Shown here piece after piece: positions 30,935 to 47,620 of a stretch of DNA of 64,000 nucleotides. Location: assembly GCF_051903065.1 (NCBI RefSeq), contig NZ_CP178438.1. One strand, 5' to 3'. The position numbers and the translations under genes are program-made. The notes below the pieces were generated by a model. The model worked only from the letters and a program-made list of their open reading frames with translations, was not told where the DNA came from and did not search any database. This DNA comes from Escherichia coli. GTDB lineage: Bacteria > Pseudomonadota > Gammaproteobacteria > Enterobacterales > Enterobacteriaceae. Every line of letters begins with the position of its first letter. The first letter of the stretch is position 1.

Positions 30935-32518
30935 ATGGAATGGATTGCCGATCCGTCTATCTGGGCCGGGTTAATCACGCTGATTGTGATCGAACTGGTC
31001 CTCGGCATTGATAACCTAGTCTTTATTGCCATCCTCGCCGAAAAACTACCGCCGAAGCAGCGCGACCGCGCACGGGTTACCGGGCTGTTGCTGGCGATGT
31101 TAATGCGCCTGTTACTGCTGGCGTCAATCTCCTGGCTGGTCACCCTGACTCAACCGCTATTCAGCTTTCGCTCGTTTACCTTTAGCGCCCGCGACTTAAT
31201 CATGCTGTTTGGTGGTTTCTTCTTGTTGTTCAAAGCCACGATGGAGCTGAACGAACGGCTGGAAGGGAAAGACAGCAATAACCCCACGCAACGCAAAGGT
31301 GCGAAGTTCTGGGGCGTGGTGACACAAATTGTGGTACTGGACGCCATCTTCTCACTCGACTCGGTGATTACAGCCGTCGGGATGGTCGACCATTTACTGG
31401 TCATGATGGCCGCCGTGGTTATCGCTATCAGCCTGATGTTGATGGCCAGCAAGCCGTTAACGCAATTTGTTAACAGTCACCCGACCATCGTTATTCTCTG
31501 CTTAAGCTTCCTGTTGATGATTGGCTTTAGCCTGGTGGCGGAAGGTTTCGGCTTCGTCATTCCGAAAGGCTACCTGTACGCTGCCATTGGTTTCTCGGTG
31601 ATGATCGAGGCGCTCAATCAGTTGGCTATCTTTAACCGGCGACGTTTTCTTTCCGCTAACCAGACGCTGCGCCAGCGGACTACCGAAGCGGTAATGCGCC
31701 TGCTTAGCGGGCAAAAAGAAGATGCGGAACTGGACGCCGAAACCGCGTCCATGCTGGTGGATCATGGTAACCAGCAGATCTTTAATCCGCAGGAACGGCG
31801 GATGATTGAGCGGGTACTTAATCTTAACCAGCGTACCGTCAGCAGCATTATGACGTCGCGCCACGATATTGAGCATATCGATCTCAACGCGCCGGAAGAA
31901 GAAATCCGCCAGTTGCTGGAGCGAAATCAGCATACGCGGCTGGTGGTTACCGACGGTGATGACGCAGAAGATTTGCTCGGTGTTGTTCACGTTATCGACC
32001 TGCTACAACAGTCTCTGCGCGGCGAACCGCTCAACCTGCGGGTGTTGATTCGCCAGCCGCTGGTGTTCCCGGAAACCTTGCCGTTGTTACCTGCCCTGGA
32101 GCAGTTCCGTAATGCCCGCACGCACTTTGCTTTTGTGGTGGATGAGTTTGGCTCGGTGGAAGGGATTGTGACATTAAGTGACGTCACTGAAACCATTGCC
32201 GGTAACTTACCGAACGAAGTGGAAGAGATCGACGCCCGCCATGATATTCAGAAGAATGCGGACGGTTCCTGGACGGCGAATGGTCATATGCCGCTGGAAG
32301 ATCTGGTGCAATATGTGCCGCTGCCGCTGGATGAAAAACGTGAATATCACACCATTGCCGGGCTGTTGATGGAGTATTTGCAGCGTATTCCAAAACCTGG
32401 CGAAGAAGTTCAGGTAGGGGATTATTTGCTTAAAACGTTGCAGGTAGAAAGCCATCGCGTGCAGAAGGTGCAGATTATACCGCTGCGTAAGGATGGCGAG
32501 ATGGAGTACGAGGTGTGA
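30935..32518 (+). CDS. yegH: Inner-membrane protein YegH (TerC-family membrane domain plus CBS/CorC-type domains)
   Basis: Track ORF is 549 aa; likely start [13 protein letters not shown]... (527 aa). Confidence 0.88.
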
Positions 32519-32780
32519 TGGTATCGGTCATTTTACCCGATGCTGCGTAACGCCTTATAACTTCAGCAATGAAGCGTTGTCTGTGGTACATGGACATTAC
32601 AGCGGGGGGGTGGGTCCGGCTGTAAATCGCCGAATCGTTTCCTGTGGCCGGGGCAGCCCACATGGATGTGGGCTGAGGGCGCGTTTTACAGGGATAATGA
32701 GATGGACGCTCCAGATTTTACGGTATCAAAGTACCAGACTGGATCGTTGCAATACGTCCTGAAAAATTAGGAGCGTCCAC

Positions 32781-33806
32781 ATGAAAGTATCAACTCTTGG
32801 TATCGACCTGGCAAAGAACGTTTTTCAGCTTCATGGTGTCGATCATGAAGGCCATACTATTTTGCGTAAAAAGCTCACCCGGGCTAAGTTTGTTCAGTTT
32901 GTGATTCAACTGGAACCTTGTCTGATTGGCATGGAAGCCTGCTCATCCAGTCATTATTTTGCGCGATTATTCACCCGCTATGGTCATGAGGTAAAACTCA
33001 TACCTCCGCAGTATGTGAAGCCTTATGTGAAAACGAACAAGACGGATGCAGCAGATGCTGAAGCAATCTGCGAAGCGGTAACCCGTCCGAATATGCGTTT
33101 TGTTCAGATAAAAAACGAAGAGCAGCAGGCCGTTTTAGCGTTACACACTGAACGGGGAATACTTATCCGTGAGCGGATTGCCTGTGCCAATAGTTTAAGA
33201 GCCACACTTGCTGAGTTTGGTATTACGATTGCGGCCGGACAAAGCCATTTAACCCGTGAGCTGCCAGCCATTCTGGAGGATAGCGAAAATGGTTTATCTC
33301 CCTTTGTCAGAACCAGCATCTACAGACAGTCTAAACATATCCGGGAACTTGAAGAACAAGTTAAACAGGTAGAAGAAGCTCTGGCCTCCTGGTATAGAAC
33401 GCAGGAAGCCTGCCAGAGAATGGCCAAAATCCCGGGGGTTGGCATGCTAACGGCCACTTATGTGGTAGCAGCAGTGGGTAATGCCCGACAATTCAGTACC
33501 GCAAAGCAGTTCGCTTCATGGCTGGGGCTGACACCAAAGGAACATTCCAGCGGCGGGAAACAGCAACTGGGAGGGATCAGCAAACGTGGAGATGGATATT
33601 TCCGATACCTGCTGGTTCACGGCGCACGCGCACTTACCGCCTGGGTCAACCGAAACGGCGCGGTTGAGGAGAATTCCTGGCTTCAGGGACTCCTTGAGCG
33701 GAAGCACTACAATGTAGCTGTTGTCGCCATGGCGGCAAAAACAGCGAGGATCATGTGGTCAATGTTGTCACACAATACTGAATATCAACCTCGGCAGCTC
33801 GCCTGA
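32781..33806 (+). CDS. IS110-family transposase/recombinase (DEDD N-terminal domain plus Transposase_20 C-terminal domain)
   Basis: 341-aa ORF: N-terminal MKVSTLGIDLAKNVFQLHGVD and C-terminal IPGVGMLTA...GLTPKEHSSGGKQQLGGISKRGDGYFR motifs characteristic of IS110-family recombinases. Confidence 0.85.
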   Translation: MKVSTLGIDLAKNVFQLHGVDHEGHTILRKKLTRAKFVQFVIQLEPCLIGMEACSSSHYFARLFTRYGHEVKLIPPQYVKPYVKTNKTDAADAEAICEAVTRPNMRFVQIKNEEQQAVLALHTERGILIRERIACANSLRATLAEFGITIAAGQSHLTRELPAILEDSENGLSPFVRTSIYRQSKHIRELEEQVKQVEEALASWYRTQEACQRMAKIPGVGMLTATYVVAAVGNARQFSTAKQFASWLGLTPKEHSSGGKQQLGGISKRGDGYFRYLLVHGARALTAWVNRNGAVEENSWLQGLLERKHYNVAVVAMAAKTARIMWSMLSHNTEYQPRQLA

Positions 33807-33839
33807 CACAAGGTCAGTCAATCTGACGAGGTGCTGAAA

Positions 33840-34060
33840 AAAAGTTAACGTCCTGGTAGGTGCAGGTGACTTCAGAAGATGGCAAAACAGGTAAGACCGC
33901 AGGCAGGATACACCGAGAGGTAACAAGGGCAAGTTAGCCCGTAGAGGATGATTGGTACCTGCCTGGCGGATTTCATCATGGTTCGGGATAAAAATCCCAT
34001 CAGAAACCGGATATATGGCTGCACCTACCCGTTTTATTACATAACTGAAGAAAGCATTGC
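33840..34060 (+). ncRNA. Candidate IS110-family guide RNA (bridge/seek-type) in the 3-prime non-coding flank
   Basis: No ORF; long-range complementary 11-mers ggtaggtgcag (33855-33865) and ctgcacctacc (34021-34031) plus internal helices; inferred by analogy with IS1111-group elements. Speculative. Confidence 0.3.
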
Positions 34061-34297
34061 ATTCCGGGAGCGTCCATATATGTTACCTCGTGCCCGTACC
34101 CGATAGCCGCAAGGAATAAGATGAGGGAACCGCGCCAGCGGCGATTTACCGCCGGGAGCCCGGGTTGCCAGGGTGGTGGCGATTGAGCCACCCTGGCACG
34201 TTCACCGGCTTGAGCCTTCCATAGTAGCGAGGAACATCAAGTGAACGGAACAGCCTTCGATCTTACATATTCAGAATATAATGGTGCCGCCGCGAAC

Positions 34298-34336
34298 GCC
34301 TGATGCGACGCTTTACGCGTCTTATCAGGCCTACAG
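34298..34336. repeat. REP element
   Basis: gcctgatgcgacgctttacgcgtcttatcaggcctac just downstream of the asmA stop. Confidence 0.85.
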
Positions 34337-34354
34337 GACAGCTCACCAGGTAAC

Positions 34355-36208
34355 CTACATCTTCTCCAGCAACTTCTTCACATCTTTGCCATTGCGGGAA
34401 TCTTTATTCCGCTCGGCCCAGTCATTCAGGCGACGTTTCGCTTCGTCCTGTAGATGTTTGCGCAGCAGCTGGTCCACTTGCAGGCTGTAATTGAGTTGCT
34501 GCCAGTTGCCATAAACCCGCAGCGGTACTGGCGTTTCTTTGAGGAAATCAATCAGTTTACTTTCCCCGTTCCAGCCACCCACGACCCGAATATCAAACTG
34601 GGTGTCGCAGGTTTGATCTGCCAGATTCAACATGCCTTCCCCTGTCAACGCCAGCACAGGCGATTGACCTTGCATGTCGTTTAACGTCACGACGCCATCC
34701 TTCAACGTCAAATCGGTGGTAAAGCGGTCAAGACGCGTTACGTTATCGAAGTTTTCAGCGGCCTTCACATCACCACCATTACGTTCTACCGCTTGCTGAA
34801 TCATCTGCTGGAAGTTCATCCCTTGCATGCGCGTATCGGCCATTTCGACATGCGCCGTCCCCTGCCAGTTGTGGCGGAATGCGTCGGCATCTATGTCAGC
34901 ACCGGAGAAATCACCAGCCAGTGACATCTTTCCGGTCAACGAAATCGGATAGTTAAACGCCTTCAGAATGGTGCCAATCTCAACGTTTTCCAGCCGTGGC
35001 TGAAAGTTTATCCGCGGATTTATTGATGTCGCGTCCAGCGTGCCCGGCAGTGAAACCTGTCCACCGTTAAGTTTGCCCTGCAGTTGAGTAATTTCCAGCA
35101 AACCCGACTTGTTGGTCATTTGCGTGGCAACATCTGTAAAATTCATTCCGCGCCAGCGCACGTTACTGGCCTGCAACAAAATATCAGCCGTAAAGCCTTG
35201 CAGTCCCTGATAGGCCGGTTCATCAATACGCGAAGAAATAACCGGGCGCGGCAACGTTGATTGGCTCTGCCCCTGCTGCGCGGCACCGTTTTCACCATTC
35301 GCGGTTTCATTAAGCGGGATGAGGTTGTCAAGATTCAGTTGCGGGAATTGCAGTCTCAGCTGCCATTCCGGTTTCTCTGTCAGCGTGACCTGTGCTTGCC
35401 CGCTCAGCGTACTATCATTGGCGGTCAAACTAATTTGGTTAAATGAAAGGCGTTTATGTGACTCCTGCCACTGGGCCAGGAAACTCCCCTGCCCCTGAAT
35501 ACCTTGTTTTGGTAAATCGGCACCCTGCAACTGCCAGTTAATTTGTTCAATAGCCGCCGTTAAATCATGCGGATAATCAGAAGCATCTACCGTACCGTTA
35601 AGGGATATCGTGAGATCGCGCTGATCGCGATTAACCCGCCCGGAGAACTCAAATGAGCCACGATGTTGGGGATCTTGTTCCATTTGCAGGCGGATATTGC
35701 GGATTGTCACCTGCTCGTCATCTTCATGCTGGAACACCAGAACGCTGTCCGCCACCTTAAGACTGGATATATCAAACGACCATCCGCGATCGTCTGACAG
35801 ATCCGGCAAGGTATTGTCGCGCGGTGCAACCGGAGCGTCTTCACTGCGCACCGCTTCCGTCTGCGGCGTCAGTTGGATCACTGCCCCTTTTAGCATCACC
35901 TGCTTAACGCTCAGTTGATGACTCAGTAGTGGTAAAAGCGCCACGTCCAGACGCATGTTATCGGCGCGAACCAGTGGCTGGCTTGCGCCCTGGGCGGTGA
36001 GAGACATTCGCCCGGAGAGGATACTAAGCTGCGGCCAGACGTGCCAACGCAGTGGCCCGTCGAGCTGCAATTGATAACCGCTACGTGCAGCAACTTGCTT
36101 GACCATATAGTCGCGGAAATCATTCGGATTCACCAGCAACACTAACGCAGATAACCCGGCCACCAGCACGACCAGGAGTATCATCAGCGTCGTCAGAAAT
36201 CGTCTCAT
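34355..36208 (-). CDS. asmA: Outer-membrane assembly protein AsmA
   Basis: 617-aa ORF with N-terminal membrane anchor; position and length as in K-12. Confidence 0.9.
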   Translation of the reverse strand: MRRFLTTLMILLVVLVAGLSALVLLVNPNDFRDYMVKQVAARSGYQLQLDGPLRWHVWPQLSILSGRMSLTAQGASQPLVRADNMRLDVALLPLLSHQLSVKQVMLKGAVIQLTPQTEAVRSEDAPVAPRDNTLPDLSDDRGWSFDISSLKVADSVLVFQHEDDEQVTIRNIRLQMEQDPQHRGSFEFSGRVNRDQRDLTISLNGTVDASDYPHDLTAAIEQINWQLQGADLPKQGIQGQGSFLAQWQESHKRLSFNQISLTANDSTLSGQAQVTLTEKPEWQLRLQFPQLNLDNLIPLNETANGENGAAQQGQSQSTLPRPVISSRIDEPAYQGLQGFTADILLQASNVRWRGMNFTDVATQMTNKSGLLEITQLQGKLNGGQVSLPGTLDATSINPRINFQPRLENVEIGTILKAFNYPISLTGKMSLAGDFSGADIDADAFRHNWQGTAHVEMADTRMQGMNFQQMIQQAVERNGGDVKAAENFDNVTRLDRFTTDLTLKDGVVTLNDMQGQSPVLALTGEGMLNLADQTCDTQFDIRVVGGWNGESKLIDFLKETPVPLRVYGNWQQLNYSLQVDQLLRKHLQDEAKRRLNDWAERNKDSRNGKDVKKLLEKM

Positions 36209-46989: not shown

Positions 46990-47164
46990 AAGAAATCATT
47001 TCTTAGAGAATTATTGAGGTCCGGTATCATACCGACTGCAATAATGAAATAAGAGCAAACGAAGAAACTTTCAGAATTAGTCCCGGCGGCGCAGAAAATT
47101 TTGCTATTCGCCTCGCAAGAACGGAGAGCCGTCGATTGACACTAAGGGCGGAGTGACATAATTT

Positions 47165-47315
47165 CAGGAGTGAGGGTTAGGGAAAGGTTTCCCCCTCCCC
47201 CTGGTGTTCTTAGTAAGCCTGGAAGCTAATCACTAAGAGTATCACCAGTATGATGACGTGCTTCATCATAACCCTTTCCTTATTTAAGGCCCCTTCCTCG
47301 GGAGGGGCTTTCCCG
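47165..47315 (+). ncRNA. sibA: SibA antisense sRNA (antitoxin to ibsA); ends approximate
   Basis: ttgaca / cataat promoter-like elements around 47139-47163; antisense to ibsA; GC hairpin ccccttcctcgggaggggc followed by a T-rich run. Confidence 0.55.
47210..47269 (-). CDS. ibsA: Type I toxin IbsA (19 aa hydrophobic peptide)
   Basis: Minus-strand translation gives MMKHVIILVILLVISFQAY with an AAGGG Shine-Dalgarno-like sequence upstream. Confidence 0.8.
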   Translation of the reverse strand: MMKHVIILVILLVISFQAY

Positions 47316-47499
47316 TTTCAGCATCCCGCTGAAATCGTCGGCTTACCTCCTTTCGCCATGCATGCAGTCTATCGCTGACTTGCGGATAAAATAGTTTCCA
47401 GTGTGATTATTGCGTAACGTCTCGCAAAGAATATTTGCTGGCAGGATCGCAGACTGCAAAGCCTGCAGATTGACAATCTGACCGTGAAGGCATACTTTC

Positions 47500-47620
47500 A
47501 GGAGTGAGGGTTGAGCGGGGTTTCCCCCGCCCTGGTAGTCTTAGTAAGCTGGCCAGCTAATGACTAAGAGCACCACGATGATGAGTAGCTTCATCATGAC
47601 CCTTTTCTTATTAAAGGATG
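47500..47620 (+). ncRNA. sibB: SibB antisense sRNA, apparently lacking its native 3-prime hairpin
   Basis: ttgaca / catact promoter-like elements at about 47471-47497; homology with the sibA copy stops near 47618. Confidence 0.45.
47541..47597 (-). CDS. ibsB: Type I toxin IbsB-like (18 aa hydrophobic peptide)
   Basis: Minus-strand translation gives MMKLLIIVVLLVISWPAY; paralogous to ibsA. Confidence 0.75.
   Translation of the reverse strand: MMKLLIIVVLLVISWPAY

What the first reader, a model, noticed from the sequence alone, without database searches (positions are those of the whole stretch)
33807..34080. Structured non-coding region downstream of the IS110 recombinase: candidate guide RNA
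No ORF covers this region. Perfectly complementary 11-mers ggtaggtgcag (33855-33865) and ctgcacctacc (34021-34031) lie about 155 nt apart, bracketing a region with further short helices. In IS1111-group elements the guide RNA is reported to lie 3-prime of the recombinase gene. If real, its loops would specify the insertion target, making the element a natural programmable recombinase.
Basis: inference. Interest (0 to 1): 0.6.

Follow-up and report, generated by a model that had tools for sequence, protein, structure and literature searches.

The report
ISEc81 guide (seek/bridge) RNA gene
The non-coding stretch after the transposase gene is very likely the guide RNA ("seekRNA" or bridge RNA) of the known E. 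coli insertion sequence ISEc81, whose loops match its insertion site; this RNA class and its presence in ISEc81 are already published, so the finding is real but ordinary.

Summary
An empty-site genome places the element at 32696-34079, with a 2-bp core AT at each junction. So 33807-34079 is exactly the 3' non-coding end of an IS1111-group element. Its transposase is 98% identical to ISfinder's ISEc81. Durrant et al. 2024 (Suppl. Table 5) already list ISEc81 with "Detected Bridge RNA End: RE".

A covariance model built from 9 relatives finds one hit in the window. It also finds full-length hits just 3' of the transposase gene in most of 80 distant IS1111 loci, and 26 of 31 pairs show compensatory changes.

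One internal loop carries GAGGUAACA (33917-25), which is complementary to the top strand right of the insertion point. It also carries GAGGAUG (33944-50), which matches the left target plus core. Across 50 non-redundant elements these loops match their own flanks far better than other elements' flanks. A junction strand (34009-18) tracks the right-end tail. Expression and transposase binding were not tested.

Side observation: the target is a TwoAYGGAY-like repeat hairpin.

The parts
32696..34079 (+). ISEc81 isoform (IS1111 group), 1384 bp, flanked by one copy of the core dinucleotide AT on each side (32694-95 and 34080-81)
   Evidence: Alignment with the empty yegH-asmA site of strain NCTC9112 (L001). 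The left flank ends at 32695, the right flank resumes at 34080, and the two overlap by 2 bp. The element is present at >=99% identity in 179 of 5426 E. coli genomes, at 339 places.
32702..32712 (+). Left subterminal inverted repeat ATGGACGCTCC, preceded by the 6-nt terminal extension AATGAG (32696-32701)
   Evidence: Exact reverse complement of 34067-34077. The same repeat is present in ISYen1, ISEch3 and the Serratia and Pectobacterium relatives.
32781..33806 (+). Transposase gene (341 aa, DEDD type)
   Evidence: NCBIfam NF033542 'IS110 family RNA-guided transposase', 358 bits against a cutoff of 140. 335/341 identical to the ISEc81 transposase printed in the supplement of PMC11187229.
33855..33865 (+). 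It pairs with 34019-34029 and closes the whole RNA.
   Evidence: The inner 6 pairs are kept in 80% of cells across 77 distinct relatives, and 5 of the 6 pairs have changes on both sides.
33866..33896 (+). J1, a multiloop strand. It contains the most conserved sequence of the RNA (GAUGGCAAAACAGGUAAGACC). Role unknown; a protein contact is presumed.
   Evidence: Invariant block in alignment A2 and largely conserved in distant relatives.
33897..33969 (+). Target-binding stem-loop. Basal stem 33897-33907/33958-33969, upper stem 33912-14/33954-56, apical hairpin 33927-30/33937-40. An internal loop carries the two target guides.
   Evidence: RNAalifold consensus. 99-100% of cells are paired, and 9 of 18 pairs have compensatory changes among 9 close relatives. 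16 of 18 do so across 77 sequences.
33917..33925 (+). T guide GAGGUAACA, complementary to the target top strand T+GTTACCTC (34081-34089)
   Evidence: 9-nt perfect match. In relatives the homologous loop is complementary to their own right flank. Own versus non-cognate longest match is 6.92 vs 3.52 nt.
33944..33950 (+). B guide GAGGAUG, identical to the target top strand (A)AGGAT+G, so it would pair with the bottom strand of left target plus core
   Evidence: GGAUG is contiguous at this site and AGGAUG at the dusC-side copies. The Citrobacter relative carries CUUAUUG next to a left target CACTATT. Own versus non-cognate is 6.02 vs 3.78 nt.
33970..33979 (+). J2 AUUUCAUCAU, a candidate donor guide complementary to the top strand of core plus left end (ATAATGAGAT). 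Of 10 positions, 8 are Watson-Crick, 1 is G-U and 1 is a mismatch.
   Evidence: Sequence inspection. The permutation signal is weak (5.80 vs 5.03) because left ends are conserved in the family.
33980..34008 (+). Second hairpin: stem 33980-83/34005-08 and stem 33985-89/33994-98
   Evidence: 98% and 91.5% of cells paired; 2 of 4 and 3 of 3 pairs have compensatory changes across 77 sequences.
34009..34018 (+). J3 GGAUAUAUGG, a candidate donor guide. AUAUAUG is identical to the right-end tail plus core plus the next base, so it would pair with the bottom strand.
   Evidence: In relatives J3 tracks the bases after the right repeat, for example GUAU, GCAU, CUAU, AGAU and ACAA. Identity with the element's own right-end tail is 5.80 vs 3.59 nt for non-cognate tails, and the complementary sense gives no signal.
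34019..34029 (+).
34057..34062 (+). TTGCAT, the -35 half of a promoter completed only in the excised circle. After 16 nt comes TATAAT, formed by T34079 + core AT + AAT 32696-98.
   Evidence: junction built in silico. This is analogous to the junction promoter reported for ISEc11 (PMC11187229). No sigma-70-like site was found on the + strand of the integrated element.
34067..34079 (+). Right subterminal inverted repeat GGAGCGTCCAT plus the 2-nt tail AT
32666..32695 (+). Left half of the target: the 5' stem and the AGGGAT loop of the second hairpin of a TwoAYGGAY-like repeat
34080..34100 (+). Right copy of the core AT, followed by the right half of the target (GTTACCTCGTGCCC, the 3' stem of the hairpin)

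Best explanation
33807-34079 is the right-end non-coding region of ISEc81, an IS1111-group insertion sequence. It encodes that element's guide RNA (seekRNA in Siddiquee et al., bridge RNA in Durrant et al.).

Inside P1 is a stem-loop whose internal loop carries two target guides. GAGGUAACA (33917-25) pairs with the top strand to the right of the cut. GAGGAUG (33944-50) pairs with the bottom strand of the left target plus the core AT, so the two footprints overlap at the core. Together they specify about 14 bp, (A)AGGAT|GTTACCTC.

The multiloop strands J2 (33970-79) and J3 (34009-18) most likely hold the donor. J2 would pair with the top strand of core plus left end, and J3 with the bottom strand of right end plus core.

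Inferred life cycle: the element excises as a circle. The joined ends create a strong promoter (TTGCAT-16-TATAAT) that transcribes the transposase gene and the downstream RNA. The RNA is processed, binds the DEDD transposase, and aligns donor and target for exchange at the AY core.

Shown here: the element boundaries, the identity of the element, the conserved structure, guide/target complementarity, and co-variation of guides with flanks. Inferred only: transcription, processing, protein binding and catalysis.
For: - Boundaries from the empty site put the whole region inside the element.
- The transposase is an IS110-family RNA-guided type and is 98% identical to ISEc81.
- There is an 11-bp subterminal inverted repeat.
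- Among 9 relatives, 92.7% of cells are paired against 85.6% in shuffles and at most 49.5% in slid controls, and 11 pairs have changes on both sides.
- Model R1 gives a single window hit at 33851-34035 (190.8 bits). It gives full-length same-strand hits just 3' of the transposase gene in most of the distant loci searched.
- Across 77 distinct sequences, 91.1% of cells are paired against 68.8% in shuffles, and 26 of 31 pairs are compensatory.
- The T guide matches the right flank perfectly over 9 nt.
- Relatives' T loops match their own flanks. Two ISEch3 copies differ by one base in the loop (GCC vs GCG), and their flanks differ by the matching base.
- In the permutation test over 50 non-redundant elements, the T loop scores 6.92 vs 3.52, the B loop 6.02 vs 3.78 and J3 5.80 vs 3.59. 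Wrong-strand and wrong-side controls are flat.
- The order T then B agrees with what PMC11187229 reports for IS1111 elements.
- Donor-binding bases in a multiloop agree with PMC11208160.
- Durrant et al. Suppl. Table 5 lists ISEc81 with the bridge RNA detected in RE.
Against: - There are no expression or binding data for this element.
- At this particular site the B guide has only 5 contiguous matches. It has 6 at the dusC-side copies.
- The J2/left-end signal is weak (5.80 vs 5.03).
- J2 and J3 can alternatively pair with each other, as in the RNAalifold consensus, so their donor-guide role is not settled.
- ATATAT is palindromic, so for ISEc81 alone the strand read by J3 cannot be decided. 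It is decided only by relatives.
- Alignment A3 was fitted to the model, so its pair counts lean towards the structure.
- Rfam 15 has no family that matches the region, so no curated external model was applied.
Confidence: 0.9

Rival explanations
1. Only the roughly 75-nt stem-loop 33897-33969 is the functional guide (a short seekRNA that selects the target). P1, J2 and J3 are then conserved for other reasons such as RNA stability, processing, or DNA-level transposase sites, and the donor ends are recognised by the protein through the subterminal inverted repeats.
For: Siddiquee et al. found a predominant 82-nt RNA containing both target matches, and they emphasise end recognition by the inverted repeats (PMC11187229). 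The J2 signal is weak. J2 and J3 can pair with each other.
Against: J3 co-varies with the right-end tail in the sense predicted for a guide and not in the opposite sense. P1 is kept with compensatory changes. A longer 154-nt form was also co-purified for ISEc11.
Confidence: 0.25
2. It is a structured 3' UTR or terminator of the transposase mRNA with no guide function.
For: The region lies directly after the stop codon. A U-rich tract (34032-34038) follows the 3' arm of P1.
Against: The consensus scan finds no intrinsic terminator there. A terminator does not explain loops that are complementary to each element's own insertion site and change with it.
Confidence: 0.03
3. The inverted repeat is a chance match, or the region is a decayed coding remnant.
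For: Short mechanical ORFs overlap the region.
Against: An inverted repeat of 11 nt or more appears in 0.33% of shuffles. There is covariation across 77 sequences. The ORFs are not preserved, and one of them crosses the element boundary.
Confidence: 0.01

Closest known systems
IS1111-family seekRNA (ISEc11, ISPa11, ISKpn4, ISPst6; Siddiquee et al. 2024, PMC11187229)
   Same: It is encoded in the long non-coding region downstream of the transposase gene of an element with subterminal inverted repeats. It has a stem-loop with a top-strand match placed 5' of a bottom-strand match, and the two overlap in the target. A junction promoter forms in the circle. The transposase is 330-350 aa.
   Different: ISEc81 itself was not tested in that paper. 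Its transposase appears there only in the phylogeny data. The target here is a TwoAYGGAY-like hairpin, not the ISEc11, REP or attC targets. That paper does not assign donor-binding segments, whereas J3 (and possibly J2) look like donor guides here.
IS110/IS621 bridge RNA (Durrant et al. 2024, PMC11208160; Hiraizumi et al. 2024, PMC11208158)
   Same: Two-part logic: one loop reads both strands of the target around a 2-nt core, and another part reads the donor ends. The recombinase is a DEDD plus Transposase_20 type. ISEc81 is listed in their Suppl. Table 5 with the bridge RNA detected in RE.
   Different: In IS621 the RNA lies in the left end, upstream of the gene, and the order of the two target guides is the reverse. 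The donor bases sit in a simple internal loop there, not on multiloop strands. IS621 also has only 2-3-bp inverted repeats.
ISYen1 (IS1667) and ISEch3
   Same: These are the closest named relatives, with 65-69% transposase identity. They share the same subterminal repeat ATGGACGCTCC and the same RNA scaffold at 160-190 bits. They share the same GGAY|G left target.
   Different: Their T-guide sequences and right target halves differ (GGCGCGGCTC and GCGGCGAA), which is natural retargeting.

Membership tests
IS1111-group insertion sequence (IS110 family) | DEDD transposase with the IS110 N-terminal domain and the Transposase_20 C-terminal domain, 330-350 aa | tested here: met
   NF033542 scores 358 bits against a cutoff of 140. 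The protein is 341 aa. The representative of its 90%-identity cluster (P0001) carries precomputed PF01548 and PF02371. It is 98% identical to ISEc81.
IS1111-group insertion sequence (IS110 family) | Subterminal inverted repeats of 7-17 bp with short terminal extensions, and no target duplication beyond the core | tested here: met
   There is an 11-bp repeat at 32702-12 / 34067-77, with extensions of 6 nt on the left and 2 nt on the right, plus the core AT.
IS1111-group insertion sequence (IS110 family) | The long non-coding region lies downstream of the transposase gene and the left end is short | tested here: met
   The left end is 85 nt before the ATG, and 273 nt follow the stop codon.
seekRNA / bridge RNA | Secondary structure conserved with covariation among homologous elements | tested here: met
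seekRNA / bridge RNA | [quoted passage not shown] | tested here: met
   and (own vs non-cognate: 6.92 vs 3.52 and 6.02 vs 3.78, with flat controls).
seekRNA / bridge RNA | Segments match the donor (element ends) | tested here: inconclusive
   J3 tracks the right-end tail (5.80 vs 3.59). The J2 versus left-end signal is weak (5.80 vs 5.03). An alternative J2:J3 pairing is possible.
seekRNA / bridge RNA | The RNA is transcribed, binds the transposase, and is required for circle formation and insertion | not testable with these tools
   No expression or biochemical data are available. Only an in-silico junction promoter was found.
seekRNA / bridge RNA | Match to a published covariance model of the class | not tested
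   Rfam 15 gave no hit in the region, and the authors' models are not available here. Their own table reports a detection in the RE of ISEc81.
TwoAYGGAY RNA (Rfam RF01731), for the target repeat only, not for the finding itself | Match to the Rfam model at or above the gathering score, with two hairpins that have AYGGAY loops | tested here: inconclusive
   The match is full length (1-168) but scores 31.5 bits, below the gathering score of 43, with E = 0.002-0.009. Two hairpins with loops AUGGAU and AGGGAU are present.

The most novel reading that the evidence does not exclude
The ISEc81/ISYen1/ISEch3 clade has specialised on the 3' edge of an AYGGAY hairpin loop of TwoAYGGAY-like intergenic repeats. 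TwoAYGGAY is an orphan Rfam motif of unknown function, and the repeat occurs at a median of 3 copies in essentially every E. coli genome. The conserved GGAUG of the B guide reads the loop, and the variable T guide reads the species-specific 3' stem. This would give the first known biological interaction partner for TwoAYGGAY elements. It would also provide a natural series of retargeted guides, including a single-base guide/target co-change between two ISEch3 copies.
Probability: 0.55. Interest if true: 0.4.

Novelty: already known. Interest (0 to 1): 0.2.

Why it matters
The scan's first stage recovered, from raw sequence alone, a real RNA-guided recombination system. That system, however, is already published: the RNA class was described in 2024, and ISEc81 is already tabulated as carrying a bridge RNA in its right end.

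What this analysis adds is modest. It gives an explicit map of the ISEc81 RNA (P1, the target loop with T and B guides, and candidate donor strands). It gives the element's exact ends and its AY core. It shows statistically that the loops of about 50 related elements track their own flanks. It also notes that this clade lands in TwoAYGGAY-like hairpins. These details could help anyone choosing an IS1111-type system with a well-defined natural target series for engineering.

Tried and rejected
- **Rfam 15, evalue mode, on 32400-34400.** There was no family in the non-coding region, only a sub-threshold naRNA4/REP hit at 34259-34331 and a spurious mir-611 hit.
- **The single genome-contig scan.** Closer relatives had to be fetched one protein at a time.
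- **Plasmid and E. coli hits H89/H90.** These were truncated fragments, not ISEc11, so no direct alignment with the experimentally mapped ISEc11 seekRNA was possible.
- **Guide sequences in the two papers' supplements.** Neither supplement contains them. Only the ISEc81 protein sequence and the table entry were found.
- **RNAalifold's long J2:J3 helix.** I did not adopt it as the main model, because J3 tracks the right-end tail and the inner stem GGUU/AACC shows compensatory change. It is not excluded for the free RNA.
- **J3 pairing with the top strand of the right end (CCATATAT).** This was considered for ISEc81 and rejected from relatives, which give no complementary-sense signal.
- **Promoter or terminator inside the integrated element.** No + strand promoter and no terminator were found in the non-coding region.
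- **A second, unoccupied target site in the window.** None was found.

Full report
**Observation.** The sequence shows GGTAGGTGCAG at 33855-33865 and its exact reverse complement at 34019-34029, with 153 nt between them. A perfect inverted repeat of at least 11 nt occurs in 0.33% of 3000 shuffles of this 275-nt stretch. The stretch as RNA folds to -85.4 kcal/mol, against -71.0 +/- 5.0 for dinucleotide shuffles (z = -2.88). Only mechanical ORFs of 50-63 aa overlap parts of it.

**Where it sits.** The window is E. coli chromosome, in the intergenic region between yegH (TerC family) and asmA. Strain NCTC9112 has the same intergenic region without the insertion. The left flank aligns up to 32695 and the right flank from 34080, with a 2-bp overlap, AT. 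The inserted element is therefore 32696-34079 (1384 bp), with a copy of AT at each junction.

It has an 11-bp subterminal inverted repeat, ATGGACGCTCC, at 32702-12 and 34067-77. The left end before the ATG is 85 nt. The ORF at 32781-33806 encodes 341 aa.

The protein matches NCBIfam NF033542, 'IS110 family RNA-guided transposase', at 358 bits against a cutoff of 140. It is 335/341 identical to the ISEc81 transposase printed in the supplement of Siddiquee et al. 2024. The element is present at >=99% identity in 179 of 5426 complete E. coli genomes, at 339 places.

**Structure.** I fetched the closest relatives: a relative with 88% transposase identity, one with 72%, ISYen1, ISEch3, and Serratia, Pectobacterium and Citrobacter elements. 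All but the Citrobacter element, whose right copy is degenerate, have the same subterminal repeat on both sides, and their non-coding regions align.

RNAalifold and manual inspection give the following layout:
- A long conserved single strand, J1.
- A stem-loop at 33897-33969 with a large internal loop and an apical hairpin.
- A 10-nt strand, J2.
- A second hairpin at 33980-34008.
- A 10-nt strand, J3.
- The 3' arm of P1.

On 9 sequences, 92.7% of cells are paired, against 85.6% in column shuffles and at most 49.5% when partners are slid. Eleven pairs have changes on both sides.

A covariance model of this structure (R1) finds exactly one hit in the 64-kb window, at 33851-34035 (190.8 bits). 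[quoted passage not shown] On that alignment (77 distinct rows), 91.1% of cells are paired against 68.8% in shuffles. 26 of 31 pairs have compensatory changes, including 5 of the 6 inner P1 pairs. This alignment was fitted to the model, so it leans towards the structure.

**Target guides.** In the internal loop, GAGGUAACA (33917-25) is perfectly complementary to the top strand T+GTTACCTC immediately right of the insertion point. At the homologous loop position, relatives carry sequences complementary to their own right flanks:
- Serratia: 8 nt.
- Pectobacterium: 9 nt with one G-U.
- ISYen1: 7 nt.
- ISEch3: 10 nt.

Two ISEch3 copies differ by one base in the loop (GCC vs GCG), and their flanks differ by the matching base.

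On the 3' side of the loop, GAGGAUG (33944-50) equals the top strand (A)AGGAT+G. It would therefore pair with the bottom strand of the left target plus core. It has 5 contiguous bases at this site and 6 at the dusC-side copies. The Citrobacter relative has CUUAUUG there and a left target CACTATT.

I then ran a permutation test over 50 non-redundant elements, scoring the longest exact match:

| Comparison | Own flank | Other elements' flanks | Share >= 7 nt (own vs other) |
|---|---|---|---|
| T loop vs right flank, complementary | 6.92 | 3.52 | 60% vs 0.9% |
| B loop vs left flank, identical | 6.02 | 3.78 | 36% vs 1.6% |

The four wrong-strand or wrong-side controls are flat. The order, with the top-strand match 5' of the bottom-strand match, is what Siddiquee et al. 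report for IS1111 elements.

**Donor side.** J3 (GGAUAUAUGG, 34009-18) contains AUAUAUG, which is identical to the right-end tail plus core plus the next base. In relatives J3 changes with the bases that follow the right repeat, for example GUAU, GCAU, CUAU, AGAU, ACAA and CACAUGA. Identity to the element's own tail is 5.80 against 3.59 for other tails, and the complementary sense gives no signal. So J3 would pair with the bottom strand of the right end plus core, which mirrors the B guide.

J2 (AUUUCAUCAU, 33970-79) is complementary to the top strand of core plus left end, ATAATGAGAT. Of 10 positions, 8 are Watson-Crick, 1 is G-U and 1 is a mismatch, and it is perfect against the ISEch3 left end. 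Its variants AUUCCAU and AUCCCAU go with left ends ATGGAAT and ATGGGAT. Because left ends are conserved, the permutation signal is weak (5.80 vs 5.03). J2 and J3 can also pair with each other.

Donor-binding bases on multiloop strands are what Durrant et al. describe for many IS1111 orthologues. I treat the donor assignment as likely but not shown.

**Expression (inferred).** No sigma-70-like promoter lies on the + strand of the integrated element, and there is no terminator in the non-coding region. Joining the right end, one core and the left end in silico creates TTGCAT-16 nt-TATAAT. This is the same device as the ISEc11 junction promoter. The RNA would then be made as the 3' part of the transposase transcript and processed, as proposed for ISEc11.

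**Comparison with the known.** All sequence-testable features of an IS1111-group element and of a seekRNA/bridge RNA are met. Expression and protein binding cannot be tested here. Rfam 15 has no matching family. The class was published in 2024 (PMC11187229, PMC11208160, PMC11208158). Supplementary Table 5 of Durrant et al. lists 'ISEc81 | Detected Bridge RNA End: RE | IS1111'. Three other papers mention ISEc81 only in lists of mobile elements. The finding is therefore real, correctly interpreted, and already known. The loop-level map is new detail, not a new kind.

**Side observation.** The uninterrupted target (L001 421-564) matches Rfam RF01731, TwoAYGGAY RNA, over its full length at 31.5 bits. 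This is below the gathering score of 43, with E = 0.002-0.009. The insertion point lies exactly at the 3' edge of the second AYGGAY-type loop (...UUUUAC AGGGAU | GUUACCU...), and the core AT/AC is the final AY of the motif.

Reconstructed targets of ISEch3, ISYen1 and the Serratia and Pectobacterium relatives are also hairpins with this loop. Several of them have a second such hairpin about 28 nt upstream. The roughly 150-nt repeat occurs in 5425 of 5426 E. coli genomes, at a median of 3 and up to 9 copies, and is unannotated. No paper in the library links TwoAYGGAY to IS110 or IS1111 elements.

**Limits.** There are no transcript or biochemical data. The donor-guide roles of J2 and J3 are not settled. 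Membership of the target repeat in TwoAYGGAY is sub-threshold. The authors' covariance models were not available.

Noticed in passing
window 32620-32695 + 34080-34190; L001 421-564: The insertion target is a roughly 150-nt intergenic repeat that matches Rfam TwoAYGGAY RNA (RF01731) over its full length but below threshold (31.5 bits against a gathering score of 43). ISEc81 sits exactly at the 3' edge of the second AYGGAY-type hairpin loop. ISYen1, ISEch3 and the Serratia and Pectobacterium relatives land in the same kind of loop. The repeat is in 5425 of 5426 E. coli genomes at a median of 3 copies. No paper in the library links this motif to IS110 or IS1111 elements.
   Followed up: partly
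window 34057-34079 + 32694-32698 (circle junction): Joining the right end, the core AT and the left end creates a near-consensus promoter, TTGCAT-16 nt-TATAAT, that does not exist in the integrated state.
   Followed up: partly
window 32703-32712 and 32769-32778: A third copy of the repeat core, GGAGCGTCCA, overlaps the Shine-Dalgarno sequence just before the transposase ATG. It pairs with the left inverted repeat in a -30 kcal/mol leader hairpin. This could block translation of read-through transcripts that enter from the flank.
   Followed up: partly
L089 vs L091 (ISEch3 copies in Dickeya), loop at about 1960 and right flank at about 2082: The two copies differ by one base in the T guide (GUUCGCCGCGU vs GUUCGCGGCGU). 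Their right flanks differ by the complementary base (ACGCGGCGAA vs ACGCCGCGAA). This is a single-step natural retargeting.
   Followed up: partly
L084, L087-L094 junctions: The two junction copies of the core differ in several relatives, with AT on the left and AC on the right, or AC/AC, or AT/AT. This pattern is expected if a donor core AT recombines with target cores AT or AC (AYGGAY).
   Followed up: partly
window 32696 (first base of the left end) vs 33976 and 34017: Both J2 and J3 'expect' a G right after the core, but the left end starts with A in ISEc81 and in most relatives. ISEch3 has the G. The B guide also carries a G after the core, and that G matches the first base of the right target. 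This may be a handshake-type contact after strand exchange, but it is unexplained.
   Followed up: no
window 34030-34040: A U-rich tract (CGUUUUAUUA) follows the 3' arm of P1, and the close relatives also have a T-run shortly after P1. It might mark the 3' end of the RNA. The terminator scan did not call it.
   Followed up: no
L098 1745-1930 (E. coli plasmid, NZ_JBSQBR010000002.1): This is an orphan copy of the end of the transposase gene plus the guide-RNA region (168.7 bits), without an intact transposase gene. Its J3 is mutated (GGAUAUCUCG). It is a decayed fragment next to IS3 and Tn3 remnants.
   Followed up: no
L026 587-777 and 2582-2769: One Marinobacterium locus has a second, different guide-RNA hit upstream of the transposase gene, so two elements are probably adjacent.
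   Followed up: no
window 34259-34331: A REP-type palindrome between the element and asmA gives a sub-threshold naRNA4 match (33.1 bits against a gathering score of 59.5). Elsewhere in the window, Rfam finds sibA/sibB-type SIB RNAs (47136-47612), two JUMPstart elements, algC RNA and a full naRNA4.
   Followed up: no
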